The position numbers were made by a program, and so were the translations under genes. DNA of 32,193 bases. Origin: Candidatus Zixiibacteriota bacterium (GTDB lineage Bacteria; Zixibacteria; MSB-5A5; GN15; FEB-12). This document shows positions 6,830 through 24,231 of the stretch, piece after piece; the first letter of the stretch is position 1; each line of letters starts with the position of its first letter. The DNA lies in assembly GCA_022564135.1 (NCBI GenBank), contig JADFLZ010000001.1, positions 1-32,193 of the forward strand, read 5' to 3'. The notes beneath the pieces were generated by a model. The model did no database searches. It was given only the letters and a program-made list of their open reading frames with translations, and had not been told where the DNA came from.

Positions 6830-7186
6830 ATGTTTGAACAGTTATTTCCAATTCTGATGCTTTTTGTAGTCGCCGCCGTTCTGGCGGGGGTGCTGATCTT
6901 CTTGTCTATATTTATTGGCAGAAGAACAAAATTAGGCAAAAAAGGGCAGCCCTATGAATGCGGGATTGATCCCGAAGGGACAACCCGTGAGCCGTTTCCC
7001 GTAAAATTCTATATGGTTGCTATTCTTTTTATTCTTTTCGAAATCGAAGTCATTTTCCTTTATCCCTGGGCAGTTATCTCCAAGGAATTAGGCCTGTTTG
7101 GTTTTATAGAAATGCTCGTATTTGTGGTGATTCTTTTGGTTGGTTATTTTTACATTCTCGGAACGGGCGCCCTAAAATGGGACTAG
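6830..7186 (+). CDS. nuoA: NADH-quinone oxidoreductase subunit A.
   Basis: 118 aa with 3 TM segments, the conserved PYECG motif, and first position in the nuo gene order. Confidence 0.95.
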
Positions 7187-7680
7187 AAGAAAAAATTCCT
7201 GACTCTATTATATTGACGTCGCTGGACAAGATGGTCAACTGGGCCAGAAAGCGGTCAATGTGGCCGCTGGGATTTGGTCTGGCCTGTTGTGCCATTGAAA
7301 TGATTTCCACTTTTGCAGCACACTTTGATCTGGCTCGTTACGGAATGGAAGTAATGCGGGCTTCACCCCGGCAGGCCGACCTTATGATAGTTGCCGGACG
7401 CGTTTCTATGAAAATGGTGCCGGTAATCAAGACCTTGTACGAGCAAATGCCGAACCCCAAATGGGTTATTTCAATGGGAGCCTGTGCCTCATGTGGCGGG
7501 GTGTTCAATAATTATGCCATTTTGCAGGGTGTGGACAGAATCATTCCGGTGGATATTTATGTTCCGGGTTGTCCTCCGAGACCCGAACAGCTGATGGACG
7601 GCATTTTGAAGCTGCAGGAAATAGTAGAAAAAGATTCCCTGAAAAAAGTTCATGAAGAGTGGGGACGTAAGGTCGTTTAG
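7177..7680 (+). CDS. nuoB: NADH-quinone oxidoreductase subunit B (cluster N2 carrier).
   Basis: Contains [17 protein letters not shown] and PGCPPRPE motifs. It overlaps nuoA by 10 nt. Confidence 0.97.
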
Positions 7681-7752
7681 TTAAACTATGACGTCTTATA
7701 GTAAGAGGAAAGCTTTGCCAAGGATTGTGAAATTAGGAACAAGCGTTAACTG

Positions 7753-8274
7753 ATGAGAACATTGCTCTCCGAGTTTCTAAAAAGTAAGTTCGCTGATCGT
7801 ATTACGGAACAAGAACTGTTTCGTGACCAGCAGTCTTTTGTCGTCGAGCCCGAATCCATCGTGTCCGTATGTGAAGCTCTTTTGAATGATGAAAATCTCG
7901 AGGTCAAGTTTCTGGCCGACATTACCTGTGTCGACTGGCTGGGACATGAGCAGGAAAAGCAGGGGCGCTTTGAAGTAGTCTACAATCTATATTCATATAA
8001 GCATTCATACCGGTTTTTCCTGAAAGTTCGCCTTGACGGCGAAAGCCTCAGCGTCGGTACTTTGACCGGCTTATGGAAAGGGGCCAACTGGCTGGAGCGC
8101 GAAGTTTTTGACCTGTTTGGGATAAAATTTGAAGGTCACCCCAATCTGACCAAGATTGTTACTCCCGATGAACTCGAAGGCCACCCATTGCGCAAAGACT
8201 TTCCTTTGACCTGGGAGCAGCCGGTATTTTCATGGAACAAAGATGACCCGCCTGAGGTGAGAAATGAGCGCTGA
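7753..8274 (+). CDS. nuoC: NADH-quinone oxidoreductase subunit C (30-kDa subunit).
   Basis: Contains the WLEREVFDLFGIKFEGHPNL signature. AGGAA lies 13 nt upstream of the ATG. Confidence 0.95.
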   Translation: MRTLLSEFLKSKFADRITEQELFRDQQSFVVEPESIVSVCEALLNDENLEVKFLADITCVDWLGHEQEKQGRFEVVYNLYSYKHSYRFFLKVRLDGESLSVGTLTGLWKGANWLEREVFDLFGIKFEGHPNLTKIVTPDELEGHPLRKDFPLTWEQPVFSWNKDDPPEVRNER

Positions 8275-9439
8275 GAAAAAGACAATCACGCTCAATATGG
8301 GTCCGCAGCATCCATCGACTCACGGCGTGCTGCGCGTAAAATTAGAGCTTGATGGCGAGCGGGTAGTTACTGCCGAGCCTATAATCGGTTACCTGCATAC
8401 CGGAATAGAAAAGACGATGGAGTCAATGCTTTATTACAAAGCGATTCCCGCAACCGACCGCATGGATTATCTGGCGCCGATGTCTAACAATCTTGGCTAC
8501 TGTCTGGCGGTTGAAAAACTAATGGATATCGAAGTTCCTGAAAAAGTGAAATGGGCTCGAGTTTGTCTGGTGGAGCTTACCAGGGTTGCCTCGCATCTGG
8601 TCTGGCTGGGGACGCACTCACTCGATCTGGGCGCTATGTCGATGCTGATGTATGCTTTTAGAGAGAGAGAACTGATAATTGACTTATATGAAGCCTGCGG
8701 CGGCCAGCGGATGATGACCAGTTATATCCGAATCGGGGGATTGGCCAGTGATTTACCGGCAGACTTTGAAAAGAAAGTGCGCAATATCATCAAGACTATC
8801 CGGGAGAAAATGAAAGACTATGATAAGCTTTTAACCGAGAACCCGATTTTTATAATGCGTACCAAAGGTGTAGCAGTAATATCTGCCGAAGATGCTATCA
8901 ACTATTGTCTGAGCGGTCCGATGCTGCGCGGTTCGGGTGTTGACTACGATGTCCGTAAGGCCAATCCCTACAGCGGTTACGAAAATTTTGATTTTGATGT
9001 TCCGTTAGGTAAAAACGGCGACGCTTATGACAGATATTTAATCAGAATGGAAGAAATGAGGCAGTCGCTAAACATAGCCGAGCAGGCTATTGACGGTATG
9101 CCCGAGGGTCCCTACCGGGCACACGTGCCGGGAGTGGTATTGCCCCCCAAAGAAGATGTTCTCTATAAAATGGAATCAATGATTTTCCATTTCAAAATAA
9201 TAACTGATGGCTTCGAAGCTCCGGTAGGAAGCGTCTATCAGGCAATAGAATCGCCTAGAGGAGAGCTCGGTTTTTACATTACAGGTGACGGCACCAACAT
9301 ACCGAGAAGAGTAAGAGTCAGGCCGCCATCATTTGTGAATCTTGGCGCGCTGCCAATACTGACCGAAGGGCATCTGTTAGCAGATGTCGTCTGCGCTATC
9401 GGATCAATTGATATTGTACTGGGAGAAGTTGACAGATGA
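8264..9439 (+). CDS. nuoD: NADH-quinone oxidoreductase subunit D (49-kDa subunit).
   Basis: N-terminal LNMGPQHPSTHGVLR signature and C-terminal GEVDR. It overlaps nuoC by 11 nt. Confidence 0.97.
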   Translation: MSAEKKTITLNMGPQHPSTHGVLRVKLELDGERVVTAEPIIGYLHTGIEKTMESMLYYKAIPATDRMDYLAPMSNNLGYCLAVEKLMDIEVPEKVKWARVCLVELTRVASHLVWLGTHSLDLGAMSMLMYAFRERELIIDLYEACGGQRMMTSYIRIGGLASDLPADFEKKVRNIIKTIREKMKDYDKLLTENPIFIMRTKGVAVISAEDAINYCLSGPMLRGSGVDYDVRKANPYSGYENFDFDVPLGKNGDAYDRYLIRMEEMRQSLNIAEQAIDGMPEGPYRAHVPGVVLPPKEDVLYKMESMIFHFKIITDGFEAPVGSVYQAIESPRGELGFYITGDGTNIPRRVRVRPPSFVNLGALPILTEGHLLADVVCAIGSIDIVLGEVDR

Positions 9440-9912
9440 TACTGTCTGAAAAAACAGTCAAAATAATTAAAGATAAGCTTTCTAAGTATCCGAAAGCCAA
9501 AGGCATGATCTTGCCTGCCTTGACACTGGCTTACAAGCAGCTGGGCTACGTTGACAATGAAATTTACATAGAGATTTCTGAGATTATAAATGTTCCGCAG
9601 TTAGAAATTGCCGAAGCGGCCTCGTTTTATACGATGTTTCCCAAAAAACCAAGAGGCAAATACCTGCTTCAGGTTTGCAATAATATCTCATGTGCTCTTT
9701 TGGGCGCCGATGCCATGGTGGATCGTCTTGAAGAAAAGCTGGCAATCAAACGAGGCGAGACTACAGATGACGGCCTGTTCACCTTGATTTCAGTCGAATG
9801 CCTGGGCTCTTGCTGTACGGCACCAATGATTCAGATAAATGATGACTTTCATGAAAATTTGACGCGCGACAAACTTGATAAATTACTGGAAGGTCTGAAA
9901 AACGGAAAATGA
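9436..9912 (+). CDS. nuoE: NADH-quinone oxidoreductase subunit E (24-kDa 2Fe-2S subunit).
   Basis: Cysteine motifs CNNISC and CLGSCCTAP. ATGA overlap with nuoD. Confidence 0.95.
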   Translation: MILSEKTVKIIKDKLSKYPKAKGMILPALTLAYKQLGYVDNEIYIEISEIINVPQLEIAEAASFYTMFPKKPRGKYLLQVCNNISCALLGADAMVDRLEEKLAIKRGETTDDGLFTLISVECLGSCCTAPMIQINDDFHENLTRDKLDKLLEGLKNGK

Positions 9913-11243
9913 CATTTTATTCACCCGTCTTAACTAACGCTAAAGAGATTGCCGGACACGACAAGCTGCACCTGTTTGAGTACGTCGAAGATGAAAAACA
10001 ATATCAGCTTAAGCGCTATCTGGAACATGGCGGTTATACTGCCTGGAAAACCGTTTTGGGCAAAATGAAACCGGAAGAGGTCATCGAAGAGGTTAAAAAA
10101 TCGGGACTGCGCGGCCGCGGCGGCGCTGGTTTTCCAACCGGTATGAAATGGAGCTTTGTCCCTAAAGATTCTCCCAAAGTGCGCTATCTTTTATGCAACG
10201 CTGACGAATCAGAACCCGGCACCTGCAAAGACAGAGTGCTGATGGAGCGCGACCCGCATGTCGTAATTGAGGGCATGGCTATCGGAGCCTATGCCATTGG
10301 CTGCCATCTTATGTTCTGCTACATCCGCGGCGAGTTTCACCATTGTATCGAACGGATTGAAAAAGCGATGGAAGAGGCTTACTCCAAAGGACATCTCGGA
10401 AAAAATATCTATGGCAGCGGTTATGATCTGGAGATGATTGTGCACACCGGCGCCGGCGCTTACATGTGCGGAGAAGAGACCGGACTTATCAACTCTATCG
10501 AAGGTGAAAAAGGGATGGCCCGGATTCGTCCGCCGTTTCCGGCAATTGAAGGTCTCTGGGAATGTCCTACTATCGTTAACAATGTAGAAAGTCTGGCGGC
10601 GGTGCCACACATAATTAACAGAGGCGCCGACTGGTACCGTTCCATGGGTACTGAAAAATCTGCCGGCACAAAATTGTTTTCTCTTTCCGGTCACATCAAT
10701 CGCCCCGGCAACTATGAAGTCGAGCTTGGTTTTTCACTACAGAAACTCATATATGATGCAAACTACGGTAACGGCATTTCCGACGGCAAGAAACTCAAAG
10801 CAGTCATTCCCGGAGGAGCTTCAACGCCTTTTCTGACACCTGATAAAGTCGACGTGCCTCTGGATTACGAAGCCTTAACTGAGGCCGGCTCAATGCTTGG
10901 CTCCGGTGGGGTGATTGTGCTCCACGAAGATACCTGCATTGTCTGGACGATTTTGAAACTTATAAAGTTTTTCCGCCATGAATCCTGCGGTAAATGCACT
11001 CCCTGCCGTGAAGGTACCGGATGGCTGGAGCAGATTATTCAAAAAATCGAAGATGGCCGCGGCGGGCCGGATGATCTGGAAAAACTGGATTCTATTTGCA
11101 GCAATATCCTTGGCCGTACTATCTGTCCGCTGGGAGATGCGGCGGTGATGCCGATTCAATCGACTTTGAAACACTGGCGCGACGAATGGCAGTATCATAT
11201 TGAACACAAAAAATGTCTGGTAAATCAGAATTTTGGATTTTAA
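9909..11243 (+). CDS. nuoF: NADH-quinone oxidoreductase subunit F (51-kDa FMN/NADH-binding subunit).
   Basis: GLRGRGGAGFPTGMKW FMN/NADH site and ESCGKCTPCREG N3 cluster motif. Confidence 0.97.
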   Translation: MTFYSPVLTNAKEIAGHDKLHLFEYVEDEKQYQLKRYLEHGGYTAWKTVLGKMKPEEVIEEVKKSGLRGRGGAGFPTGMKWSFVPKDSPKVRYLLCNADESEPGTCKDRVLMERDPHVVIEGMAIGAYAIGCHLMFCYIRGEFHHCIERIEKAMEEAYSKGHLGKNIYGSGYDLEMIVHTGAGAYMCGEETGLINSIEGEKGMARIRPPFPAIEGLWECPTIVNNVESLAAVPHIINRGADWYRSMGTEKSAGTKLFSLSGHINRPGNYEVELGFSLQKLIYDANYGNGISDGKKLKAVIPGGASTPFLTPDKVDVPLDYEALTEAGSMLGSGGVIVLHEDTCIVWTILKLIKFFRHESCGKCTPCREGTGWLEQIIQKIEDGRGGPDDLEKLDSICSNILGRTICPLGDAAVMPIQSTLKHWRDEWQYHIEHKKCLVNQNFGF

Positions 11244-13802
11244 ATGGCACAAGCAGTAAAAGAAAAAGTAACGGCAATCGCCACTGTTACCTGTACCATA
11301 GACGGACAGCAGATAAGTGTCCCCAAAGGTACCAGCGTCTTCGATGCCGCCAAGCAAATCGGCATTGTCATCCCTGCTTTTTGCAATCATGCCAAATTGA
11401 AACCGGTCGGCGCCTGCCGTATGTGCTATGTTGAAATCGAAAAAATGCCCAAACTTCAGGTCTCATGCGCTACAACGGCCACCGACGGCATGGTCGTCAG
11501 CACTAACTCTCAGCAGGTCAGAGAAGGACGCAAAGCGGTTATCGAGTTTACGCTGATAAATCATCCGCTCGACTGTCCTACCTGCGACAAAGGCGGCGAG
11601 TGCGATTTGCAGGACTTGACGTTTTCTCACGGTTACGACGATTCCCGTTTTGGTTTTAACAAAATGCGTTTTATCGAAGAAGAGAAGCGCGATACTTTTG
11701 ATGATCTGAAAATAGGCCCTGAGATAGTTCTCAATAGAAATCGCTGCATTTTATGTTACAAGTGTGTCAGGGCCAACAAAGAAGCTTTCGGCGAGTACGA
11801 TATCGGATCTTTTGAGAGAGGCGACCATACCGAGATAAATGCCACGCCCGGTGGCGAGGTCAGCAATCCCTTTTCCGGTAACCTGGTAGAAATTTGTCCG
11901 GTCGGGGCGCTGACAAACTCTGACTGGCGCTATAAAATTCGTGTCTGGCTGACCAAGACGGTGCCATCAATCTGCAATTTCTCCGGCTCGGGTACTAATA
12001 TTACGTTTTATAAAGAAGACCACAAAAATTTTGTATATCGGGTGACTTCCAGATGCAACGATGATATCGATGACGGCTGGCTGAGTGATATCACCCGTTA
12101 TGGTTACCAGATTGTAAATTCCGAAAGCCGGCTGAAGACTCCGTTAATTAAAAAAGGCGGTAAGCAAGTTGAAGCCAGCTGGGATGAAGCGCTGGCCGTT
12201 ATAAAAAAACATATGGGCGAAATCAAAGACCAGAGCGGCGGTGTCTGCATAGGCGGTCTGATCAGTCCCAGTCTTGATAATGCCAGCCTCTACAGTTTTT
12301 CAAAGCTATTAAGAACAGTTTTCAAATCCAACAATATTGATTTCAGGGGTGACTATCGCTATCTGCCGTCAGTTACCGACAGTCCCTTTACGATAGCTGC
12401 CTCGCAGCCTTTTTCTATTGCTGATATAGAAAAATCTGATGTGATAATAACATTTGGTACCGATCTGATACGTGAGCACCATAACGAATATCTGAAAATC
12501 AGACGCGCTGTCAATTTCTTTAAGGCAACTGTCTATTCGGTAAACCCGTATGCGGTCAAGACGGCCGATATTGCCAAATCCGAAATGGTTTACAGCCCGG
12601 GGACGGATGAACTTGTCATAAACGGCGTTTGCTTAGCGGCCATAGAAAAGAAACTGGTAGACTCAGCGGCCGCTGCTAAGCTGAAACCAAAAATTTCAAA
12701 GCTCAGTCTGGGCGAATTAGCAAAGCAGACCGGTCTTAGCAAAGAGCAATTTGAAGAACTGGCTGAAGCTATTTCTGGTGCTAAGAGAATTACGTTTATT
12801 GTTGGAGAAATTGTAGCCCGTTCTTTAGAAAGAGATAAAATTTGTGCAGCCTTGTCAAATTTGAATAAGCTCTTTGGTGTTCAAGACAAAGGGCAGCTGG
12901 CCGTTTTGTCGCGATATGCTAACTCCAAAGGCGCTCAAAAACTTGGTCTCTCTGCAACTCCTTATGAAATTGTCAAAGCTGAGCTTAAAAAGATCTGGGG
13001 AGAGTATCCCGATTGCCAGCCGCGCAATACGGACTCGATGATAAACCTTATGAAAAAGGAAGAAATCAAAGGTTTCATTACTGTTGGCACGAATCCCATG
13101 AGACTATATCCCGACCGAGGTTTCGCCTCCGAAGGACTTGAGCATGTAGATTTTCTGGTAGCCTGCGATATGTTTGAAACAGAGACCACCGAACTGGCCG
13201 ATGTCGTGCTGCCACTTTGCAGCTGGGCCGAATACGACGGTGACTACATTAATCTTGAAGGAAAAGTCCAGACAGGTAAACAGGCCATAAAACCAAAGTA
13301 TAAATCCAAAGCGGCCTTTGAAATAATGGAGTTAATCGCCAGCCAGTCAGGTGTTAAGCTCTTTGAAAATGAACAGAGCAAAAGCGAAGAGATAGAGCAG
13401 CTGCTAAGCCTTAATTCTGTTTTGCCCTGGCCGGAAGATTTTATTGAAATTGAATACCAAAAGAAAAGCGCCGAAGACGGCTATCCGGTGCCTCTGTTCA
13501 TCTGCGACGACCCTCATCACAGCGGACATCTGACCGAAAAGTCACCGTCACTGCTGAATTTTTCTGACTCTGCCTATGTGGAACTGTCAAAGAGCCTGGC
13601 AGCAAAAATCGGAGTAGCAGACGGCGACCCGGTCAGGGTGGAATCTCCGGTAGGGAAGATAGTGGTGCCGGCAAAAATTTCAGCTGTGTTAACCAGCGAA
13701 GTCGCTATTATTCCCAGAAATTTCAGTTCAACCCAGATTACTTCGCTCTTAATGAGAAAGAAAAGAGTAGACAGCGTCAAACTAACGAGAGTGGAAGAAT
13801 AA
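11244..13802 (+). CDS. nuoG: NADH-quinone oxidoreductase subunit G (75-kDa subunit).
   Basis: It has the N1b 2Fe-2S cysteines (C-x10-C-x2-C-x13-C), the N5 motif HPLDCPTCDKGGEC and the N4 motifs CILCYKC...CPVGAL, followed by a molybdopterin-oxidoreductase-like C-terminal domain. The N7 cysteine motif appears lost (SICNFSGSGT and WLSDITRYG). The ATG directly abuts the nuoF TAA. Confidence 0.95.
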   Translation: MAQAVKEKVTAIATVTCTIDGQQISVPKGTSVFDAAKQIGIVIPAFCNHAKLKPVGACRMCYVEIEKMPKLQVSCATTATDGMVVSTNSQQVREGRKAVIEFTLINHPLDCPTCDKGGECDLQDLTFSHGYDDSRFGFNKMRFIEEEKRDTFDDLKIGPEIVLNRNRCILCYKCVRANKEAFGEYDIGSFERGDHTEINATPGGEVSNPFSGNLVEICPVGALTNSDWRYKIRVWLTKTVPSICNFSGSGTNITFYKEDHKNFVYRVTSRCNDDIDDGWLSDITRYGYQIVNSESRLKTPLIKKGGKQVEASWDEALAVIKKHMGEIKDQSGGVCIGGLISPSLDNASLYSFSKLLRTVFKSNNIDFRGDYRYLPSVTDSPFTIAASQPFSIADIEKSDVIITFGTDLIREHHNEYLKIRRAVNFFKATVYSVNPYAVKTADIAKSEMVYSPGTDELVINGVCLAAIEKKLVDSAAAAKLKPKISKLSLGELAKQTGLSKEQFEELAEAISGAKRITFIVGEIVARSLERDKICAALSNLNKLFGVQDKGQLAVLSRYANSKGAQKLGLSATPYEIVKAELKKIWGEYPDCQPRNTDSMINLMKKEEIKGFITVGTNPMRLYPDRGFASEGLEHVDFLVACDMFETETTELADVVLPLCSWAEYDGDYINLEGKVQTGKQAIKPKYKSKAAFEIMELIASQSGVKLFENEQSKSEEIEQLLSLNSVLPWPEDFIEIEYQKKSAEDGYPVPLFICDDPHHSGHLTEKSPSLLNFSDSAYVELSKSLAAKIGVADGDPVRVESPVGKIVVPAKISAVLTSEVAIIPRNFSSTQITSLLMRKKRVDSVKLTRVEE

Positions 13803-13806
13803 GCTT

Positions 13807-14814
13807 ATGTCGCTTGAGTTTTTCATAGTCACCTTCGTAAAAATCGCCCTGCTTATTTTTGTGCTGCTGACTGCCTGTGCCTATTCCACCTATATGGAGC
13901 GAAAAATTCTGGCATATATGCAGAATCGGGTCGGACCTTCTTATGCCGGACCATACGGTTTACTGCAGCCTCTGGCGGACGGACTCAAATTGATTTTCAA
14001 AGAGGACTTGGTTCCCGACAGAGTTGAACGAATCACCTATGCATTGGCACCGGTTGTATCATTTATACCGGCTATGCTGGTTTTTGCCGTAATTCCCTTT
14101 AGTTCGGAATTTGATCTGTTCGGTCTGCTGCCTTCTGCCACCAAGGGTGTTATTTCCGATTTATCAATCGGAGTTTTATTCATCTTTGCAGTCACCTCGC
14201 TGGGAGTGTACGGCCTAGTACTGGCCGGCTGGTCATCGGGCTCAAAATATTCGCTGCTGGGCGGCATCCGCTCATCGGCACAAATGATATCATACGAAGT
14301 TGGCTATGGTCTTTCGATTGTAGGGGTGGTTCTGGTCTCCAACACCCTTTCATTGACTGAAATAGTATCTTTACAATCAGGGTCATTATTTAACTGGTTT
14401 ATATTTAAGCAGCCCTTAGGATTTATGATTTACATTGTCTGTGGGATTGCCGAAACAAACCGGGCGCCGTTTGATATGGCCGAAGCGGAATCTGAACTGG
14501 TCGCCGGATATCACACCGAATATTCTTCGATGCGTTTTTCGATGTTTTTTATAAGTGAATACGCCAACATGCTGGCAGTATCGGCTGTGGCCGTGACGCT
14601 GTTTTTCGGAGGCTGGGCCGGGCCGCTGTTACCGCCAATTTTTTGGTTCTTAATAAAGATTCTGGTATTTATGTTTGTTTATATCTGGCTGCGGGCAACT
14701 TTTCCGCGCTTTAGATATGACCAGTTAATGACTTTTGGATGGAAAGTGCTTTTTCCCCTGGCGCTATTGAACATTATGCTGACAGCAGCCTGGGAATTAT
14801 ATAAAAACTCATGA
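13807..14814 (+). CDS. nuoH: NADH-quinone oxidoreductase subunit H.
   Basis: Contains the GLLQPLADGLKLIFKED signature, is a polytopic membrane protein, and sits at the expected position in the operon. Confidence 0.96.
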   Translation: MSLEFFIVTFVKIALLIFVLLTACAYSTYMERKILAYMQNRVGPSYAGPYGLLQPLADGLKLIFKEDLVPDRVERITYALAPVVSFIPAMLVFAVIPFSSEFDLFGLLPSATKGVISDLSIGVLFIFAVTSLGVYGLVLAGWSSGSKYSLLGGIRSSAQMISYEVGYGLSIVGVVLVSNTLSLTEIVSLQSGSLFNWFIFKQPLGFMIYIVCGIAETNRAPFDMAEAESELVAGYHTEYSSMRFSMFFISEYANMLAVSAVAVTLFFGGWAGPLLPPIFWFLIKILVFMFVYIWLRATFPRFRYDQLMTFGWKVLFPLALLNIMLTAAWELYKNS

Positions 14815-14830
14815 GTGTGAAGAAAATAAG

Positions 14831-15337
14831 ATGAAAGAAATAATTACAGCCTTAGGCAGAACATTTATCAGGATGCCAATCGGTATGCTGGTGGTTTTGA
14901 AGCATATGTTCAAAAAACCGGTGACGCTTGATTATCCCCGTAAGAAAAAGCCGATGGCCCCGCGCTTTATGGGACGGCAATATCTGGAACGCTATGACGA
15001 CGGCAGCGAGCGCTGTGTTTCTTGCGGATTGTGTGCGGCAGCCTGTCCGTCGGACTGTATCTATATGGAGCCGGCCGAAAACGAAAAGGGTGAGCGCTAC
15101 GCCAAAGTGTTTGAGATAAATCTGCTTCGTTGTATTTTCTGCGGATTTTGTGAAGAAGCCTGTCCCGAAGAAGCGATTTTCATGGGTCATCATTATGAAT
15201 TTAGTGCCGACAATCGCGATTCCTTCATCTGGACCAAAGAGGATATGCTGGTAAAGCACCCGCGCAAAGATAACCCGTTCAAAACATTGTTTAGAAGAGT
15301 CAGAAAAGTTTACGGAGTAACTGACAAAACAAGATGA
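14831..15337 (+). CDS. nuoI: NADH-quinone oxidoreductase subunit I (2x[4Fe-4S] ferredoxin-type).
   Basis: Two CxxCxxCxxxCP motifs: CVSCGLCAAACP and CIFCGFCEEACP. Confidence 0.96.
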   Translation: MKEIITALGRTFIRMPIGMLVVLKHMFKKPVTLDYPRKKKPMAPRFMGRQYLERYDDGSERCVSCGLCAAACPSDCIYMEPAENEKGERYAKVFEINLLRCIFCGFCEEACPEEAIFMGHHYEFSADNRDSFIWTKEDMLVKHPRKDNPFKTLFRRVRKVYGVTDKTR

Positions 15338-15906
15338 ACCTTGACGGCGTAATATTTATTATTTCAGCGGCGGTTACTTTGTTTGGTGCGGTCATGATGA
15401 TTATGCAGCGCAACCCGGTGGCGGCGGTTTTGTATTTCATACTTTCACTGGTGGCTCAAGCCGTGCTGTATGTTCAATTAGGAGCGCTCTTTGTCGGTGC
15501 TGTTTTGATAATAGTTTATTCCGGGGCAATCCTAGTGCTTTTCTTATTCGTGATAATGCTGCTAAATCTCAGAGGGGACGAAGACCTCGGCGCGCCGTCA
15601 GCGCCGCTGTCGCAGCTCACCAAGTATATTGTCTCCATAGGCATTATAGCAGAGTTTGCTTTTATAATCTGGTCGAGCGTCTTTTCAAGTTCTATTCCTA
15701 CCGGAATTATTGCAGGAGCTTCTGACAATTTCGGATCAACCGAGCAGGTGGCCAGGTTGCTGTTTGGTCGTTACCTCTATCCTTTTGAGCTGACTTCGAT
15801 ATTGCTGCTGGCTGCGATTGTCGGTGCGGTTGTTATTGCCAGAAAAGAAGATAAAGATGAAACTGAATCTAAAGCAGAAGCGTCAACTGACAAAGCAACA
15901 GGTTAA
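15334..15906 (+). CDS. nuoJ: NADH-quinone oxidoreductase subunit J.
   Basis: 190 aa hydrophobic ND6-like protein with ATGA overlap with nuoI. It has a charged C-terminal tail (KEDKDETESKAEAS). Confidence 0.9.
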   Translation: MNLDGVIFIISAAVTLFGAVMMIMQRNPVAAVLYFILSLVAQAVLYVQLGALFVGAVLIIVYSGAILVLFLFVIMLLNLRGDEDLGAPSAPLSQLTKYIVSIGIIAEFAFIIWSSVFSSSIPTGIIAGASDNFGSTEQVARLLFGRYLYPFELTSILLLAAIVGAVVIARKEDKDETESKAEASTDKATG

Positions 15907-15909
15907 GAT

Positions 15910-16212
15910 ATGTTTGGAATTACGCATTTCTTGTTTATAGCAGTTTTACTTTTCGGCATTGGGGTGACAGGCGTGCTTATTTCGCGGAACATTATTGTTC
16001 TGCTTATGTCGGTGGAGTTGATGTTAAACGCTGGCAACCTGGCGATTATTGCTTTTTCAAGAGCCTTAAATGTTATGGATGGTCACGCTTTCGTGTTTTT
16101 GGTGTTAACCGTCGCGGCTGCCGAAGCTGCTGTCGGACTGGCCATGGTGATTACGATTTTTAATAACCGCCGCTCAATAAATATTGACAAGTATAGTCTG
16201 CTTAAGTGGTAG
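15910..16212 (+). CDS. nuoK: NADH-quinone oxidoreductase subunit K.
   Basis: 100 aa with 3 TM segments, ND4L-like, with conserved Glu residues in the TM helices (MSVELMLNAGN, AAAEAAVGLA). Confidence 0.93.
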   Translation: MFGITHFLFIAVLLFGIGVTGVLISRNIIVLLMSVELMLNAGNLAIIAFSRALNVMDGHAFVFLVLTVAAAEAAVGLAMVITIFNNRRSINIDKYSLLKW

Positions 16213-16225
16213 GTGTAAAGAAGAG

Positions 16226-18160
16226 ATGACAGAAAACATTTATTGGATACCGCTCTTGCCGCTATTGGGCTTTCTGGTCAACGGCCTGCTATTGGGGAAA
16301 CTTCCCCAGCGGGTTGTCTCGCTGATTGCCTGTGGTACGGTTGGCCTATCGTTTCTGTTGTCGCTTTTGTCGTTTCTGGAGCTTAAAGCGCTGCCGCCGG
16401 AATTACGTATAATCGAACAGACATTGTTTACCTGGATATCATCAGGTGATTTCCATGTCAATTTCGGATTTTTGTTAGACCCGCTTTCATCTATCATGAT
16501 TCTGGTCGTAAGCGGTGTCGGCTTTTTAATTCATCTTTATTCTGTCGGATATATGAGTCATGATTCCGGATATGGTCGTTATTTTGCTTATCTGAATCTG
16601 TTTACATTTTCAATGCTGGTACTGGTACTGGCTGACAATTTCCTGTTTATGTTTGTGGGCTGGGAAGGTGTCGGACTTTGTTCTTATCTTTTGATAGGTT
16701 TCTGGTTTGAGAAAAAATCAGCCTCCGATGCCGGCAAGAAAGCTTTCATAGTAAACCGCATCGGAGATTTTGGATTTTTGATCGCCATGTTCATAATTTT
16801 CTGGCAGGTCGGTTCGCTTGACTTTATGACTGTCGCGGCAAGAGCCCCTGAGGTTTTTGTAGCAGGAGGAGCGCTGGTTACGGCAGCCTGTATTCTGCTG
16901 TTTGTAGGGGCAGCCGGAAAGTCCGCTCAGATTCCGCTATATGTCTGGCTTCCGGACGCCATGGAAGGTCCTACTCCGGTTTCGGCTTTGATTCATGCCG
17001 CTACTATGGTAACCGCCGGCGTCTATATGATTGTCCGTGCCAATGCCCTGTTTATCCTGTCGCCTGATGCACTTATGGTTGTTGCCATTGTTGGCGGTGT
17101 GACAGCGCTCTTTGCGGCGACTATCGGACTGGTTCAAAATGATATTAAGCGAGTGCTGGCCTATTCAACTATCAGCCAGCTTGGTTATATGTTTTTGGCT
17201 TGCGGTGTGGCTGCTTTTTCTGCCAGTATTTTTCATCTTATGACTCACGCTTTTTTCAAAGCGCTGCTGTTTCTTGGGGCCGGCTCTGTTATTCACGCTA
17301 TGTCTGACGAACAGGACATGCGTTATATGGGCGGACTAAAAAAATATCTACCAATAACTTTTGGGACATTTTTTATCGCAACTCTGGCGATATCGGGCAT
17401 TCCTCTGATGTCGGGTTTTTTCTCCAAGGATGAAATTTTGTGGCAAGCCTTTTCGTCCGACTACGGTCACCCAATCTTTTGGGTGATGGGCTTTATTACA
17501 GCCGGTCTGACGGCGTTTTATATGTTCCGATTGTTGTTTATGACTTTTTATGGCAAAGAGCGCATGGACGAAAAAACGAAAAGTCATATCCATGAGTCAC
17601 CAAAGTTTATGACTATACCGCTGATGGTTCTGGCTGTCTTAGCAGTTGTCGGCGGCTGGATTGGCATGCCTCACATTTTTGGAGTAACAAATTATTTCGA
17701 AGCCTGGCTTGAGCCGGTAATTTCCGCCAAGCCGGCGGCAGCGGCAGATATGCTGACTTCGGCCGGAAGCGACACCAGCATGGAACTTATGCTGATGTTC
17801 GCTACTATTATTCTGGTTGGTCTGGCTATTTTTGCTGCATTCAAAATTTATAACAAAAACCCAAAAGTGGCTGACTCGCTGGCAGACAAATTCAAAACTC
17901 CTCACAATGTTCTTTTAAACAAATATTATGTTGATGAATTCTATGGGGCGGTCATTGTACGTCCGCTCATATATTTCTCTCTGTTTTTGTGGAAGATTAT
18001 GGATGTCTTGTTGATTGACGGTCTGTTAAACGGTCTGGCAAAATTGTATGAAGGCATTTCTGAGACAATGCGTTCAATACAGACCGGCCGGGTAAGGTCG
18101 TATGCGACGGTATTTGTCATTGGAGTTTTCATCTTAATAGCTTATGCGGTGACTGGATAA
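16226..18160 (+). CDS. nuoL: NADH-quinone oxidoreductase subunit L.
   Basis: ND5-type antiporter-like subunit with WEGVGLCSYLLIGFW and a long C-terminal lateral-helix region. I chose the ATG at 16226 (MTENIYWIPLL, preceded by AAAGAAGAG) over the listed upstream start at 16184, which would overlap nuoK by 29 nt. Confidence 0.93.
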   Translation: MTENIYWIPLLPLLGFLVNGLLLGKLPQRVVSLIACGTVGLSFLLSLLSFLELKALPPELRIIEQTLFTWISSGDFHVNFGFLLDPLSSIMILVVSGVGFLIHLYSVGYMSHDSGYGRYFAYLNLFTFSMLVLVLADNFLFMFVGWEGVGLCSYLLIGFWFEKKSASDAGKKAFIVNRIGDFGFLIAMFIIFWQVGSLDFMTVAARAPEVFVAGGALVTAACILLFVGAAGKSAQIPLYVWLPDAMEGPTPVSALIHAATMVTAGVYMIVRANALFILSPDALMVVAIVGGVTALFAATIGLVQNDIKRVLAYSTISQLGYMFLACGVAAFSASIFHLMTHAFFKALLFLGAGSVIHAMSDEQDMRYMGGLKKYLPITFGTFFIATLAISGIPLMSGFFSKDEILWQAFSSDYGHPIFWVMGFITAGLTAFYMFRLLFMTFYGKERMDEKTKSHIHESPKFMTIPLMVLAVLAVVGGWIGMPHIFGVTNYFEAWLEPVISAKPAAAADMLTSAGSDTSMELMLMFATIILVGLAIFAAFKIYNKNPKVADSLADKFKTPHNVLLNKYYVDEFYGAVIVRPLIYFSLFLWKIMDVLLIDGLLNGLAKLYEGISETMRSIQTGRVRSYATVFVIGVFILIAYAVTG

Positions 18161-19737
18161 TGGAACTTTCTCTTTTAACATTTTTCCCGGCTATTGGCGC
18201 TTTGCTTTTGCTGCTGGTGCCGTCAAAGCAGCATGATACTATTAAAATGGTCAGCTTGCTGGTAGCCTTTGTTACCTTTTTGGTTTCACTATGGCTCTAT
18301 TTTGCCTTTGACCCGATTGCACATCCGATGCAGTTTGAGTTTTCCGTTCCCTGGATTCCATCAATGGGCATAAATTATCATATGGGCATCGATGGCATTT
18401 CATTGCTGCTGATAGTGATGACGGCGCTGCTGATGATTCCTGCCATACTCTGTTCCTGGAAATCTATCACAAAATCTGTCAAAGGTTTTTATATTTCGAT
18501 GCTTCTGCTGGCAACCGGAATGCTTGGAGTTTTCTGCTCGCTTGACCTGTTTCTGTTCTATGTTTTCTGGGAAGTAATGCTGATACCGATGTATTTCATA
18601 ATCGGGCTCTGGGGAGGCCAGAGACGACTCTATGCAGCCATAAAATTCGTGCTGTTCACCATGTTCGGTTCTCTATTGATGTTAGTAGCTATTATTTACA
18701 TGGCTTTTGAATTCAAATCACAGACAGGTGTCTATTCATTTGACATGATAGCACTAACCGGTATGCCAATAGCGACGCAGGCACAAATGTGGTTGTTCGG
18801 AGCCTTTGCGCTGGCCTTTGCCATCAAAGTTCCGCTGTTCCCGTTTCATACCTGGCTTCCTGACGCTCATGTCGAGGCGCCGACTGCTGGCTCGGTAATT
18901 CTGGCGGGTGTGCTTTTAAAACTCGGCACTTACGGCTTTATCAGGATTTGTATGCCGATGTTCCCCGAAGCTACTGTTGCTTTCACTCCCTATATTTCAG
19001 TCTTGGCTATTATCGCCATAATCTATGGCGCCCTGGTAGCTATGGTCCAAAAAGATATTAAGTCACTGGTGGCTTTTTCGTCTGTTTCGCATATGGGCTT
19101 TGTGATGCTGGGTCTGTTTGCCTTAAATACACAGGCACTTGAAGGCAGCGTAATTCAGATGATAAACCACGGCATTTCTACCGGCGCTCTGTTTTTATTG
19201 GTAGGCATGATATATGAAAGGCGCCACACCAGACTGATTAGTGAGTTTGGCGGACTGGCCAAAGTGATGCCGGTTTTTTCAACGATTTTTCTGATTGTCA
19301 TTCTGTCATCAATCGGTCTGCCCTTGACTAATGGCTTTGTCGGCGAATTTTTGATACTGCTGGGCCTGTTTAAGGTAAATGCCACCTATGCCATATTAGC
19401 CGCGACAGGTATCATACTGTCGGCCTGCTATATGTTGTGGATGTACCAGAGAGTTGTCTTCGGCAAACTGACCAATCCCAAAAACGAAAAGCTGCTGGAT
19501 CTGTCATTGAGAGAAAAAGTTATTTTGATACCGCTGGTCGTGCTCATATTTTGGATTGGTATTTATCCCAAGCCGCTCTTTGACAGACTAAGCCCGTCTA
19601 TCAGACTAGTTCAGGAGCAAATGCAGAGTCGGGCTTCGGCTGGCAAAAACAGCAAATTTGAATTTGTTGAAAGTATTAAAGAAAGCGATTATAACTATGA
19701 CGCTACAATTGAAGATAGACTGGAGAAAGTAAAATGA
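18160..19737 (+). CDS. nuoM: NADH-quinone oxidoreductase subunit M.
   Basis: ND4-type subunit with FWEVMLIPMYFIIGLWGG and FPFHTWLPDAHVEAPT. TAATG overlap with nuoL. Confidence 0.95.
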   Translation: MELSLLTFFPAIGALLLLLVPSKQHDTIKMVSLLVAFVTFLVSLWLYFAFDPIAHPMQFEFSVPWIPSMGINYHMGIDGISLLLIVMTALLMIPAILCSWKSITKSVKGFYISMLLLATGMLGVFCSLDLFLFYVFWEVMLIPMYFIIGLWGGQRRLYAAIKFVLFTMFGSLLMLVAIIYMAFEFKSQTGVYSFDMIALTGMPIATQAQMWLFGAFALAFAIKVPLFPFHTWLPDAHVEAPTAGSVILAGVLLKLGTYGFIRICMPMFPEATVAFTPYISVLAIIAIIYGALVAMVQKDIKSLVAFSSVSHMGFVMLGLFALNTQALEGSVIQMINHGISTGALFLLVGMIYERRHTRLISEFGGLAKVMPVFSTIFLIVILSSIGLPLTNGFVGEFLILLGLFKVNATYAILAATGIILSACYMLWMYQRVVFGKLTNPKNEKLLDLSLREKVILIPLVVLIFWIGIYPKPLFDRLSPSIRLVQEQMQSRASAGKNSKFEFVESIKESDYNYDATIEDRLEKVK

Positions 19738-19964
19738 GTAATTCCGGCGAAGTGACAATCTATACCAAGCAAGGCTGTCCCTATTGTGCGGCGGCCTTAA
19801 AGCATTACACCGAGCAGGGGACAAAGTTCAGGCAAATAGACATTCACGACACCCCCGGTGCCAAAGAAGAAGTTCTGAAACTGACCAAAGGTCAGGAAAT
19901 AGTGCCGGTGATAATCGAAGACGGCCAGGTCACGGCCGGATTTGGAGGTGGCTGAGGTTTCTAA
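19734..19964 (+). CDS. Glutaredoxin-like small redox protein (CPYC active site). It is probably a selenoprotein, with TGA 19953-19955 decoded as Sec and a C-terminus of ...GFGGG-U-G-F. The conventional reading ends at 19955.
   Basis: Grx/NrdH-like fold pattern: VTIYTKQGCPYCAAALKHY...EIVPVIIEDGQVTAGFGG. ATGA overlap with the nuoM stop, and GGAG at 19722-19725 eight nt before the ATG. The TGA is followed by GGT TTC TAA and an immediately adjacent SECIS-like hairpin. As I recall, an NCBI family named Uxx-star glutaredoxin-like (seleno)protein has Sec exactly three residues from the stop. Confidence 0.8.
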
Positions 19965-19996
19965 ATTAGCTGCGGCGGTCGCCGCACAAAGAAACT
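19956..19996 (+). promoter_or_regulatory. Candidate bacterial SECIS element: a two-tier stem-loop immediately 3' of the TGA.
   Basis: The lower stem pairs GTTTCT (19957-19962) with AGAAAC (19990-19995). The upper stem pairs TGCGGC (19971-19976) with GCCGCA (19981-19986). The apical loop is GGTC (19977-19980), about 25-28 nt from the U of UGA. This is comparable to the E. coli fdhF SECIS, whose GGUC-containing loop carries the essential G23/U24. It could instead be a plain intra-operon hairpin. Confidence 0.5.
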
Positions 19997-20005
19997 AAAA
20001 CTGAT

Positions 20006-21454
20006 ATGTTTGATACTACCGCGGCATCGATAGATTTTAGCATCATAGCGCCTGAGATCACTCTGCTGGTGGCGGCGTTTATAATTCTGGTCTCTGTCTA
20101 TAACGAGAGAATGAGAAATATGGCGCCCATAATCGCTACTTTAGGGCTGTTGGTCTCATTGATTATTTCCATAGAGCAGATGGGCAATCCCAAGACCGGA
20201 TTTTTTGGAATGGTCAGTTGTGATGATTTCACGGTTGTATTCAAAATTTTATTCGTAGTTTCATCTCTGCTTATTCTCATGATAGGTCGCCGCTATTTTG
20301 TGGCCAAAAATATTGACCGTCCGGAGTTCTATGCTCTTCTGTGCATTTCTACAATGGGCATGATGGTCATGGCTTCGACAACCGATTTAGTCGTAATATT
20401 TTTGGGCTTGGAAATTATGTCGGTGCCGCTGTATGTCATGGCCGGCATGGACAAGCGCTCTCTGGAGTCTAACGAAGCCGGCATCAAATACCTGATAATG
20501 GGAGCCTTCGCCAGCGGCTTTTTGCTGATGGGCATCGCTTTTATATTCGGATCGTCGGGCACTACCGATTTGCGGCGAATAGCTGCCGACTTTCAGTTCA
20601 TAGGTGAAAATTATCGGCTCTACTTTAATGCCGGTGCCGTGCTGACTTTAGTAGGTTTCGCTTTTAAAGTTGCGGCGGTCCCGTTCCACTCCTGGGTGCC
20701 CGATGTCTATCAGGGGGCACCAACGCCTGTTACTGCATTTTTTTCCGTCGGACCAAAAGCTGCCGGATTCGCGGCACTGCTGCGCATTTTTAATTTCGGG
20801 TTCGAAGACATGGAATTTATCTCTGATATTTTCTGGATGCTGGCTGTTCTGACCATGACTGTCGGAAATATACTGGCATTAAGGCAGGGGAACATTAAAA
20901 GAATGCTGGCTTATTCTTCAATTGCCCACGCCGGATATATACTGGTAGCTTTAGCTGTCGGCGGCTCGGCGGCAATGTCTGCGGCTATTTTTTATCTGTT
21001 TGCTTACGCGCTTTTTAACCTGGGAAGTTTTGCCATCATCACTCAGCTTGAGATACGCAGCGGCTGCAAATCCGAACTCTCCGAGCTTTCGGGTCTTTCT
21101 AAAGCTCATCCTTATTTGTCTGCGGCGCTGACTGTCTTCATGCTGGCGCTGGCAGGTTTCCCACCCACAGTTGGCTTTATCGGCAAATTTTATCTGTTTA
21201 CAGCTGCCATTGATGGCGGCTTTATCTGGCTGACTGTCATAGGTGTTTTGAATTCTTTTATATCAGTCTACTATTATCTGCGGGTGGTAAAAGTTAGTTT
21301 TCTGGAGAAGTTCGAGGGTACTTTCGCACCTGTCAAATATACGCCTGCTATGATTGCTGTACTGCTGATTACACTGGCCGGAACTCTGGGGTTGGGTATT
21401 TTTCCCGAAAAACTCCTTGAGCTTTCTCAAGCGGCGATTTTTGCTTTTCTCTAA
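20006..21454 (+). CDS. nuoN: NADH-quinone oxidoreductase subunit N.
   Basis: ND2-type antiporter-like subunit (VPFHSWVPDVYQGAPTPVTAF, KRMLAYSSIAHAGY) and the last gene of the operon. Confidence 0.95.
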   Translation: MFDTTAASIDFSIIAPEITLLVAAFIILVSVYNERMRNMAPIIATLGLLVSLIISIEQMGNPKTGFFGMVSCDDFTVVFKILFVVSSLLILMIGRRYFVAKNIDRPEFYALLCISTMGMMVMASTTDLVVIFLGLEIMSVPLYVMAGMDKRSLESNEAGIKYLIMGAFASGFLLMGIAFIFGSSGTTDLRRIAADFQFIGENYRLYFNAGAVLTLVGFAFKVAAVPFHSWVPDVYQGAPTPVTAFFSVGPKAAGFAALLRIFNFGFEDMEFISDIFWMLAVLTMTVGNILALRQGNIKRMLAYSSIAHAGYILVALAVGGSAAMSAAIFYLFAYALFNLGSFAIITQLEIRSGCKSELSELSGLSKAHPYLSAALTVFMLALAGFPPTVGFIGKFYLFTAAIDGGFIWLTVIGVLNSFISVYYYLRVVKVSFLEKFEGTFAPVKYTPAMIAVLLITLAGTLGLGIFPEKLLELSQAAIFAFL

Positions 21455-24180: not shown

Positions 24181-24231
24181 TTCAAAAACTACTGTCCTGT
24201 AATTCTGGCGGGTCAACAATTCTAAGTAAGC

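What the first reader, a model, noticed from the sequence alone, without database searches (positions are those of the whole stretch)
19722..20008. A thiol/selenol oxidoreductase gene is embedded in the complex I operon between nuoM and nuoN
Canonical nuoA-N operons run M directly into N. Here a 73-76 aa Grx-like gene is inserted. Its ATG overlaps the nuoM stop (ATGA at 19734-19737) and it has its own GGAG Shine-Dalgarno, so it should be co-translated with the membrane-arm subunits. The 3' arm of the hairpin following it ends 11 nt before the nuoN ATG, and nuoN has no obvious SD. Ribosome passage or Sec decoding could therefore influence nuoN initiation. In mammalian mitochondria Grx2 is known to control glutathionylation of complex I. 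A dedicated Grx-like protein encoded inside a bacterial nuo operon suggests an analogous redox-maintenance or assembly role. That role is my inference, and I know of no description of such a subunit-like partner.
Basis: partly seen in the sequence, partly recalled or inferred. Interest (0 to 1): 0.7.

Follow-up and report, generated by a model that had tools for sequence, protein, structure and literature searches.

The report
Selenoprotein glutaredoxin inside complex I operon
A small selenium-containing glutaredoxin-like gene sits between the nuoM and nuoN genes of the respiratory complex I operon in this Zixibacteria genome and in every related genome examined, which suggests, but does not prove, a dedicated redox helper for complex I.

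Summary
Window 6830-21454 is a nuoA-N operon. A small gene (19734-19964) lies between nuoM and nuoN. Its ATG overlaps the nuoM stop and a GGAG lies 8 nt upstream.

The gene is not a new kind of protein. It is a full-length match to NCBIfam NF041212, the Uxx-star family of glutaredoxin-like (seleno)proteins. It has a CPYC site, then ...GFGGG-UGA-GGT-TTC-TAA, meaning selenocysteine (Sec) three residues from the end. A SECIS-like hairpin follows, with a GGUC loop 21 nt after the UGA.

The placement appears undescribed in the literature I could search. All 92 related loci fetched (80 species-representative genomes, almost all labelled Zixibacteria) have nuoM-grx-nuoN, TGA plus two sense codons plus a stop, and in nearly all a covarying hairpin. 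None of 72 outgroup nuoM-nuoN junctions has the gene. More distant Uxx-star genes sit in unrelated neighbourhoods.

The insertion is therefore an old, clade-wide, strongly constrained fifteenth gene of the Zixibacterial nuo operon. A complex-I-directed redox or assembly role is inferred from synteny only. The suggested Sec control of nuoN is unsupported, because most nuo genes here lack a Shine-Dalgarno (SD) sequence.

The parts
6830..21454 (+). nuoA-B-C-D-E-F-G-H-I-J-K-L-M-[grx]-N operon
   Evidence: NCBIfam hits for every subunit. No terminator-like site between grx and nuoN.
18160..19737 (+). nuoM coding sequence; its TGA stop (19735-19737) overlaps the grx ATG
   Evidence: TIGR01972, 644 bits. 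Sequence read.
19722..19725 (+). GGAG Shine-Dalgarno-like motif, 8 nt upstream of the grx ATG
   Evidence: An SD-like motif precedes grx in 60 of 74 distinct relatives.
19734..19964 (+). Uxx-star glutaredoxin-like selenoprotein gene, 76 codons with Sec at codon 74 and a TAA stop at 19962-19964
   Evidence: NF041212, 111 bits against a cut-off of 66, covering model positions 1-70 of 70. Pfam Glutaredoxin, E = 1e-12. AF2 model pLDDT 88, Grx/NrdH fold.
19776..19787 (+). CPYC redox motif (Cys15-Pro-Tyr-Cys18)
   Evidence: Invariant in 29 of 29 aligned orthologues.
19953..19955 (+). In-frame TGA read as selenocysteine (residue 74)
   Evidence: All 91 loci have TGA, two sense codons (GGN, then TTY/ATH/GTY, with synonymous variation) and then a stop. 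L091 has the same pattern. Cys-containing homologues align a Cys at this position.
19971..19986 (+). SECIS-like hairpin: 6-bp stem TGCGGC/GCCGCA and loop GGTC (19977-19980), 21 nt after the UGA
   Evidence: Covariation: 88% of cells paired against 68% in shuffles (0 of 500 shuffles reach it), 118 double-change cells against 34. Meets all four bSECIS criteria. Same loop as E. coli fdhF.
19956..19996 (+). Optional lower stem (19956-19962 with 19990-19996) enclosing the hairpin
   Evidence: MFE fold. A comparable lower stem is predicted in 44 of 78 distinct relatives, so it is not a firm feature.
20006..21454 (+). nuoN coding sequence, starting 41 nt after the grx TAA
   Evidence: TIGR01770, 444 bits. 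The TGA-to-ATG gap is 42-53 nt in most relatives.

Best explanation
The gene encodes a 76-residue cytoplasmic redoxin of the Uxx-star family. It has a minimal glutaredoxin fold (beta-alpha-beta-alpha-beta-beta, with no C-terminal helix) and a CPYC dithiol. A flexible Gly-rich tail, GFGGG-Sec-Gly-Phe, follows.

The UGA at 19953 is decoded as selenocysteine. The hairpin that directs this lies after the true stop codon, in the 41-nt spacer before nuoN.

The gene was inserted once, in an ancestor of the Zixibacteria. It has been kept since as a fifteenth gene of the nuo operon. It is transcribed with the operon, and its start overlaps the nuoM stop, so its synthesis tracks that of the membrane-arm subunits.

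Most likely mechanism (inferred):
1. The selenolate on the mobile tail attacks an oxidised or thiolated cysteine on a client.
2. The resulting selenenyl-sulfide is resolved by the CPYC pair, much as the GCUG tail of mammalian thioredoxin reductase shuttles to its internal dithiol.
3. The client is complex I itself or its assembly intermediates.

Shown here: the identity of the gene, the Sec recoding signals, clade-wide conservation and the absence of the gene in outgroups. Inferred: co-translation, the tail-to-CPYC relay and complex I as the client.
For: Family and fold:
- NF041212 scores 111 bits against a cut-off of 66 and includes the three residues after the TGA.
- The AF2 model (pLDDT 88) has the beta-alpha-beta-alpha-beta-beta order with a low-confidence tail and no third helix.
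- Foldseek matches Grx/NrdH structures at TM 0.76-0.80.
- The alignment to E. coli Grx3 ends at the GG kink, where Grx3 continues into its last helix.

Sec recoding:
- All 91 loci have TGA, then GGN, then TTY/ATH/GTY, then a stop, with third-position variation. L091 has the same pattern.
- Cys forms such as ...GFGGS-C-SF align a Cys with the TGA.
- The hairpin covaries.
- 63 of 81 distinct sequences meet all four published bSECIS criteria, against 3.4% of random positions in the same loci.
- The GGUC loop matches the E. coli fdhF SECIS loop.

Operon linkage:
- nuoM-grx-nuoN is present in all 92 related loci.
- The grx start overlaps the nuoM stop by 1-13 nt in 53 of 74 distinct junctions.
- None of 72 outgroup M-N junctions has a Grx.
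- Grx pairwise identities track those of NuoN and NuoM (r = 0.45-0.48, Mantel p about 0.001). The mean pairwise identity of Grx, 0.66, is about the same as NuoN at 0.65.

Tail-to-CPYC relay:
- Cys-form homologues have CxxS/T at the N-terminal site. That pattern fits the C-terminal Cys/Sec acting as the partner of the first Cys.
Against: - No physical or expression data exist. The link to complex I rests on gene order alone.
- More distant Uxx-star genes sit beside a C_GCAxxG_C_C gene (L092), or beside a P1B-type ATPase, a rhodanese, a peroxiredoxin and rubrerythrins (L094). The family is therefore a general redox or metal module, not a complex I module.
- Nearly all other bacteria run complex I without such a gene.
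- The Sec machinery (selA, selB, selC, selD) could not be checked in any Zixibacterial genome with these tools.
- No Rfam family matches the hairpin. Folded alone, it is not significantly more stable than shuffles (z = -0.44).
- The related loci were found through the Grx itself, so Zixibacteria that lack it would have been missed.
Confidence: 0.55

Rival explanations
1. Housekeeping hitch-hiker. The protein is a general cytoplasmic selenoredoxin, for example a reductant for peroxiredoxins, ribonucleotide reductase or metal detoxification. It landed in the nuo operon and stays there because the operon gives steady expression and excision would disturb nuoN. It has no specific business with complex I.
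For: Other Uxx-star genes lie in varied redox and metal neighbourhoods. A review notes that the family's Sec may bind metals or unknown substrates (PMC13188914). The outgroup complex I operons lack it.
Against: The position between nuoM and nuoN, with the start overlapping the nuoM stop, has been held across a clade in which Grx pairwise identity falls to 46%. The genes downstream of nuoN changed over the same span, being either an S8 peptidase or purF. No relocated copy appeared among the best 80 genome hits.
Confidence: 0.3
2. Metal- or cluster-handling factor. The Sec and the CPYC cysteines act as ligands, for example to deliver or protect Fe-S clusters or another metal during assembly of the peripheral arm, rather than as a disulfide reductase.
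For: A review suggests a ligand role for the Sec in this family. One distant homologue follows a P1B-type metal ATPase. The protein lacks the last Grx helix, which contributes to glutathione binding in classical Grx (established knowledge).
Against: The proline in CPYC normally disfavours Fe-S binding in glutaredoxins (established knowledge). No metal-handling gene lies near the operon in the window.
Confidence: 0.1
3. Regulatory reading. The UGA/SECIS unit just upstream of nuoN makes nuoN translation depend on selenium supply or on SelB binding, and the peptide itself is secondary.
For: The hairpin lies 19 nt before the nuoN ATG, or 9 nt if the lower stem is counted. The UGA-to-ATG gap is held at 42-53 nt in most loci. 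nuoN lacks an SD-like motif in 65 of 78 distinct relatives.
Against: The 70-residue Grx body is as conserved as NuoN, so the protein itself is under selection. Most nuo genes in this operon also lack an SD, so nuoN is not unusual. The same UGA-xx-stop-hairpin unit occurs in family members that are not followed by nuoN.
Confidence: 0.05
4. Not a selenoprotein. The TGA is the real stop, and the hairpin is an mRNA stability or processing element.
For: No Rfam SECIS hit. The Sec machinery was not verified. Most gene callers ended the gene at the TGA.
Against: Exactly two sense codons and then a second stop follow the TGA in all 92 related loci (91, L091). Those two codons vary at the third position but keep Gly plus Phe/Ile/Val in 89 of the 91. 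Cys homologues align with the TGA. The family HMM extends through these residues.
Confidence: 0.03

Closest known systems
Uxx-star glutaredoxin-like (seleno)proteins: NCBIfam NF041212, with sub-families NF041114, NF041211 and NF047338. Listed in review PMC13188914 as 'Distant Grx-like protein 1' from the 2008 GOS analysis and as families from Haft and Tolstoy 2025.
   Same: Small Grx fold, an N-terminal redox motif, Sec three residues from the C-terminus, and a SECIS placed after the stop codon. The HMM score is well above the cut-off.
   Different: This clade has CPYC and one Sec, whereas the review lists family 1 with UxxT and two Sec. It misses the family 2 and family 3 cut-offs. It is fixed inside a nuo operon, a neighbourhood I could not find described. 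The Haft papers could not be read.
Mammalian mitochondrial glutaredoxin 2 acting on complex I thiols
   Same: A dithiol Grx-fold enzyme proposed to keep complex I cysteines reduced or deglutathionylated.
   Different: Grx2 is encoded separately, is not a selenoprotein and has the full Grx fold with a glutathione site. Here any action on complex I is only inferred from gene order.
NDUFA2 (B8), the thioredoxin-fold accessory subunit of mitochondrial complex I (established knowledge)
   Same: A small thioredoxin-superfamily protein associated with complex I without being part of the 14-subunit core.
   Different: No detectable sequence relationship was tested or seen. NDUFA2 is a stably bound subunit, whereas binding of the Zixibacterial protein is unknown.
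C-terminal Gly-Cys-Sec-Gly tail of mammalian thioredoxin reductase (established knowledge)
   Same: Sec sits near the end of a flexible Gly-rich C-terminal tail and could shuttle between an internal dithiol and a substrate.
   Different: The host fold is different (a flavoprotein disulfide reductase). There is no neighbouring Cys in the tail here, so the partner would be the CPYC site.
E. coli fdhF SECIS element
   Same: A hairpin with the apical loop GGUC, 18 nt after the UGA in fdhF and 21 nt here. G then G in the first two loop positions fits the bSECIS consensus.
   Different: It lies beyond the stop codon rather than inside the coding region. No bulged U was identified in the 6-bp stem.
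Extra reading frames (URFs) interspersed in the nqo/nuo operons of Paracoccus and Rhodobacter (established knowledge)
   Same: Non-core genes embedded within a complex I operon.
   Different: They occupy different positions, are unrelated proteins, and none is known to be a selenoprotein or a glutaredoxin.

Membership tests
Uxx-star glutaredoxin-like (seleno)protein (NF041212) | Score above the curated HMM cut-off over the full model | tested here: met
   111 bits against a cut-off of 66, model positions 1-70 of 70, with U written as C. 103 bits without the tail.
Uxx-star glutaredoxin-like (seleno)protein (NF041212) | Glutaredoxin/thioredoxin fold with an N-terminal CxxC-type motif | tested here: met
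   CPYC at residues 15-18, invariant in the alignment. Pfam PF00462, E = 1e-12. AF2 model and Foldseek matches to Grx/NrdH.
Uxx-star glutaredoxin-like (seleno)protein (NF041212) | In-frame UGA followed by exactly two sense codons and a stop | tested here: met
   TGA GGT TTC TAA at 19953-19964. The same pattern holds in all 91 loci and in L091.
Bacterial selenoprotein gene (general criteria in PMC13188914) | bSECIS: loop of 3-9 nt, stem of 4-16 bp, G in the first two loop positions, 16-37 nt from the UGA, MFE of -7.5 kcal/mol or lower | tested here: met
   Window: loop GGUC, 6 bp, 21 nt, -10.7 kcal/mol. 63 of 81 distinct sequences pass all four, against 3.4% of random sites. Covariation supports the stem.
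Bacterial selenoprotein gene (general criteria in PMC13188914) | Cys-containing homologues align a Cys with the UGA | tested here: met
   P0208 (GFGGS-C-SF), P0207 and P0156 align their Cys with the TGA position.
Bacterial selenoprotein gene (general criteria in PMC13188914) | The genome encodes selA, selB, selC (tRNA-Sec) and selD | not testable with these tools
   None lies in the window.
Bacterial selenoprotein gene (general criteria in PMC13188914) | Selenium is actually incorporated at the UGA | not testable with these tools
   Needs 75Se labelling or mass spectrometry.
[quoted passage not shown] | Score above cut-off, plus two Sec with an N-terminal UxxT motif as listed in the review | tested here: inconclusive
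   74.9 bits against a cut-off of 72 with the tail, 69.2 without it. The N-terminal motif is CPYC, not UxxT, and there is one Sec, not two.
UXX-star families 2 and 3 (NF041211, NF047338) | Score above the curated cut-off | tested here: not met
   71.4 bits against 100, and 71.4 bits against 97.
Classical bacterial glutaredoxin (Grx3 type, TIGR02181) and NrdH (TIGR02194) | Score above cut-off and a complete fold that includes the C-terminal helix | tested here: not met
   46.9 bits against 90, and 41.3 bits against 85.75. The model has no helix after beta-4. The alignment to Grx3 stops at residue 65 of 82.
Complex I accessory subunit or dedicated assembly factor | Conserved membership of the complex I operon | tested here: met
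   All 92 related loci have nuoM-grx-nuoN. None of 72 outgroup junctions does.
Complex I accessory subunit or dedicated assembly factor | Physical association with complex I, or a requirement for it | not testable with these tools
   No multimer prediction, proteomics or genetics was available.

The most novel reading that the evidence does not exclude
The Uxx-star selenoprotein is a genuine lineage-specific partner of bacterial complex I. In this reading it is a selenocysteine-tailed redoxin, made stoichiometrically with NuoM and NuoN, that docks on the enzyme or its assembly intermediates and keeps specific cysteines reduced. That would make it a bacterial, operon-encoded counterpart of the Grx2/complex I relationship in mitochondria, and the first selenoprotein tied to complex I.
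Probability: 0.3. Interest if true: 0.7.

Novelty: new variant of a known kind. Interest (0 to 1): 0.5.

Why it matters
Complex I is a major source and target of oxidative thiol damage. In mitochondria its cysteines are serviced by a glutaredoxin encoded elsewhere in the genome. A redoxin locked into the complex I operon of a whole bacterial phylum, and carrying selenocysteine, would be a natural experiment on how respiratory complexes are protected or assembled.

It would also give the poorly understood Uxx-star family its first concrete candidate client. Its GGUC SECIS loop resembles the E. coli one, so heterologous expression may be feasible.

There is a practical point for annotation. Most gene callers truncate this gene at the UGA and label it a plain glutaredoxin.

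Tried and rejected
- Rfam scan of 19700-20100 at E up to 10 gave only a spurious viral frameshift-element hit and no SECIS family.
- Folding the single hairpin gave no significant z-score (-0.44). The support comes only from comparative data.
- The 'Cake' designer proteins top the PDB sequence search, but only by summing weak repeat matches. I ignored them.
The position of the tail relative to CPYC could therefore not be modelled.
- I looked for clade-conserved cysteines in NuoL, NuoM and NuoN as candidate clients. A few exist (NuoL residues 50, 166, 236 and 340; NuoM residues 264 and 423). Their accessibility and clade specificity could not be judged, so I make no claim.
- The 'no SD before nuoN' argument was tested and set aside, because most nuo genes here lack an SD.
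- The 190-230 nt nuoM-nuoN spacers in the nearest outgroup loci were checked for a hidden small ORF. None was found.
- The Haft and Gwadz 2023 and Haft and Tolstoy 2025 papers, which define several Uxx-star families, are not held in the library. I cannot exclude that the nuo neighbourhood is mentioned there.
- Searches for glutaredoxin with nuoM/nuoN, Zixibacteria with glutaredoxin, and Zixibacteria with complex I found nothing relevant.
- A search for Zixibacteria with selenocysteine gave no information on the Sec machinery.


Full report
**What is at the coordinates.**
The window carries a complete nuo operon on the + strand. NCBIfam assigns the ORFs from 6830 to 19737 to NuoA through NuoM, and the ORF at 20006..21454 to NuoN. 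Between nuoM (18160..19737) and nuoN lies a 73-codon ORF, 19734..19955. Its ATG shares the tetranucleotide ATGA with the nuoM stop. A GGAG sits 8 nt upstream. The ORF ends at a TGA, but the frame continues TGA GGT TTC TAA. A GC-rich hairpin follows, with stem 19971-19976 / 19981-19986 and loop GGUC. In this window a second, outer stem (19956-19962 / 19990-19996) encloses it. No terminator-like site and no T-run follow the hairpin, and promoter-like matches in the region are at chance level. Base composition is flat across the junction. One correction applies. The conserved stem ends 19 nt before the nuoN ATG and the outer stem ends 9 nt before it, not 11.

**What the gene is.**
The product matches Pfam Glutaredoxin (E = 1e-12). 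More tellingly, it matches NCBIfam NF041212, 'Uxx-star family glutaredoxin-like (seleno)protein'. The score is 111 bits against a cut-off of 66, over the whole 70-position model, including the three residues after the TGA. It misses the cut-offs of classical Grx3, NrdH and Uxx-star families 2 and 3. It only grazes family 1 (74.9 against 72). A recent review lists family 1 as having two Sec and a UxxT motif, whereas this protein has CPYC and one Sec. An AlphaFold2 model built on 29 orthologues (pLDDT 88) shows beta-alpha-beta-alpha-beta-beta and then a low-confidence tail, with no C-terminal helix. Foldseek places it among glutaredoxins and NrdH redoxins at TM 0.76-0.80. The alignment to E. coli Grx3 runs to the GG kink at Grx3 residue 65. 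There Grx3 continues into its last helix, whereas this protein ends with GGG-Sec-Gly-Phe.

**Is the UGA really selenocysteine?**
Four lines of comparative evidence say yes.
1. In all 91 loci (the window, 10 loci from look-ups of seven homologue clusters, and 80 species-representative genomes), the TGA is followed by exactly two sense codons and a stop. Those two codons vary at third positions (GGT/GGC/GGA/GGG; TTC/TTT; ATT/ATA/ATC; GTC/GTT) but keep Gly plus Phe/Ile/Val in 89 of 91. No locus has a Cys codon instead. L091 shows the same pattern.
2. More distant homologues exist in Cys form, for example ...GFGGS-C-SF, and their Cys aligns with the TGA.
3. A hairpin follows in nearly every locus, with the loop starting 18-24 nt after the UGA in 77 of 81 distinct sequences. 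The loop is GGUC in 45, and otherwise mostly CGUGU, GGU, AGGU or CGUGA. On a 70-sequence alignment the 7-bp helix is 88% paired, against 68% in column shuffles (0 of 500 shuffles reach it). It has 118 double-substitution cells against 34 expected. Register-shifted controls give 29-47%, apart from 74% at a shift of -3.
4. The window hairpin meets all four published bSECIS criteria. So do 63 of 81 distinct relatives, against 3.4% of random positions in the same loci. The remaining 18 fail mainly on the energy threshold.

The loop is identical to that of the E. coli fdhF SECIS, which I read directly from the K-12 genome: GGUC 18 nt after the UGA. TGA is not generally reassigned in this organism, because nuoM itself stops at TGA. 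I could not test whether the genome has the Sec machinery. None of it lies in the window.

**Is the placement conserved?**
Homologues of the Grx in the large protein collection are mostly labelled Zixibacteria. Seven clusters at 63-74% identity were looked up, and all sit between nuoM and nuoN. A scan of one genome per species found 432 loci encoding a relative, and the best 80 were fetched. They are titled Zixiibacteriota, GN15, FCB group, 'uncultured Ignavibacteriales' (third-party MAGs), one Calditrichaeota and one Deferrimicrobium. Their NuoM (66-97%) and NuoN (55-96%) identities to the window form one continuous clade. Every locus with enough flank reads nuoL-nuoM-grx-nuoN. The closest, L011 (Zixiibacteriota isolate B21T1B10), is 91% identical in DNA over 8.2 kb, so the window comes from a related Zixibacterium. 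A representative at only 51% Grx identity (P0121) again lies between nuoM and nuoN.

The grx start overlaps the nuoM stop by 1-13 nt in 53 of 74 distinct junctions, and 60 of 74 have an SD-like motif. Pairwise identities of Grx correlate with those of NuoN and NuoM (r = 0.45-0.48, Mantel p about 0.001). Grx is as constrained as NuoN, with mean pairwise identity 0.66 against 0.65. This fits a single old insertion inherited vertically.

**Outgroups and other family members.**
A metagenome scan seeded with NuoN, not with the Grx, returned 80 loci at 35-49% NuoN identity. Of these, 72 had nuoM upstream. None contains a Grx, and most M-N gaps are between -25 and +43 nt. The few long gaps in the nearest outgroups are non-coding.

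More distant Uxx-star genes also end TGA-x-x-stop, but they sit elsewhere. One lies next to a C_GCAxxG_C_C gene. Another follows a P1B-type ATPase beside a rhodanese, a peroxiredoxin and rubrerythrins. The nuo placement is therefore a trait of this clade and not of the family.

**How it most likely works.**
Shown: a Sec-tailed CPYC redoxin gene is fixed inside the operon, with its start overlapping the nuoM stop. Inferred: co-transcription and co-translation with the membrane-arm subunits. Also inferred is a catalytic cycle in which the tail selenolate attacks an oxidised thiol and the selenenyl-sulfide is resolved by CPYC. Cys-form homologues have CxxS/T at the N-terminal site, which suggests the C-terminal Cys/Sec pairs with the first Cys. 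Complex I or its assembly intermediates would be the client.

The main rival is a general-purpose redoxin that merely rides on the operon. The family's varied neighbourhoods favour that view. The strict positional conservation, while the genes downstream of nuoN changed between an S8 peptidase and purF, argues against it.

nuoN usually lacks an SD (13 of 78 distinct relatives have one), but about 10 of the 15 genes in this operon also lack one. The same UGA-xx-stop-hairpin unit also occurs in family members that are not followed by nuoN.

**Novelty.**
The protein family is curated and is listed in a 2026 review. NCBI already names one Zixibacterial orthologue 'Uxx-star'. I found no paper describing a glutaredoxin or selenoprotein between nuoM and nuoN. 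I rate the finding a new variant of a known kind: a known selenoprotein module recruited as a conserved extra gene of a complex I operon.

**Limits.**
The related loci were found through the Grx itself, so Zixibacteria lacking it would not appear. The Sec machinery and any physical association with complex I are untested.

Noticed in passing
window 6295-6690 (+): A 131-aa ORF just upstream of nuoA matches the Pfam Janus/Ocnus family (PF05005, E = 6e-07), an unusual neighbour for a nuo operon.
   Followed up: no
window 16184-16230 (+): The mechanical nuoL ORF starts at TTG 16184, overlapping nuoK. ATG 16226 (MTENIYW...) fits the start of the TIGR01974 alignment better and is probably the true start.
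   Followed up: partly
window 21451-24219 (-): A 922-aa S8 subtilase converges on nuoN with a 4-nt overlap. It ends in two dockerin-like repeats (ILDLT[FY][ML]VDFIFRGG). In relatives the gene after nuoN is either this peptidase or purF.
   Followed up: partly
L095 2263-2498; L097 2189-2426; L108 499-896: The nearest outgroup loci (NuoM 56-60% identical) have a 190-230 nt non-coding spacer with inverted repeats between nuoM and nuoN, instead of a direct junction. L108 also repeats a roughly 60-nt block that includes the nuoN start.
   Followed up: partly
L092 3617-4225; L094 1-3462: Distant Uxx-star genes, also ending TGA-x-x-stop, lie next to a C_GCAxxG_C_C family gene (L092). In L094 the gene follows a P1B-type ATPase with a Cys/His-rich insert and sits beside a rhodanese, an AhpC/TSA peroxiredoxin and two rubrerythrins.
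   Followed up: partly
proteins P0208, P0207, P0156, P0163, P0236, P0231 (alignment A3): Homologues with Cys instead of Sec near the C-terminus have CxxS/T rather than CxxC at the N-terminal site. This suggests the C-terminal Cys/Sec is the redox partner of the first Cys.
   Followed up: partly
window 104-3944, 5181-6281 (+) and 30732-32180 (-): Five sizeable ORFs (436, 175, 669, 366 and 482 aa) have no Pfam match at E up to 1e-4.
   Followed up: no
window 6830-21454: Only about 5 of the 15 genes in the operon are preceded by an SD-like motif, and grx is one of them. This points to weak Shine-Dalgarno usage in this genome.
   Followed up: partly
loci L013, L014, L016, L022, L024 and others: About 20 third-party MAG records titled 'uncultured Ignavibacteriales' carry NuoL/M/N 65-75% identical to the window, with the same nuoM-grx-nuoN synteny as records titled Zixiibacteriota. 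Their taxonomic labels may be unreliable.
   Followed up: no
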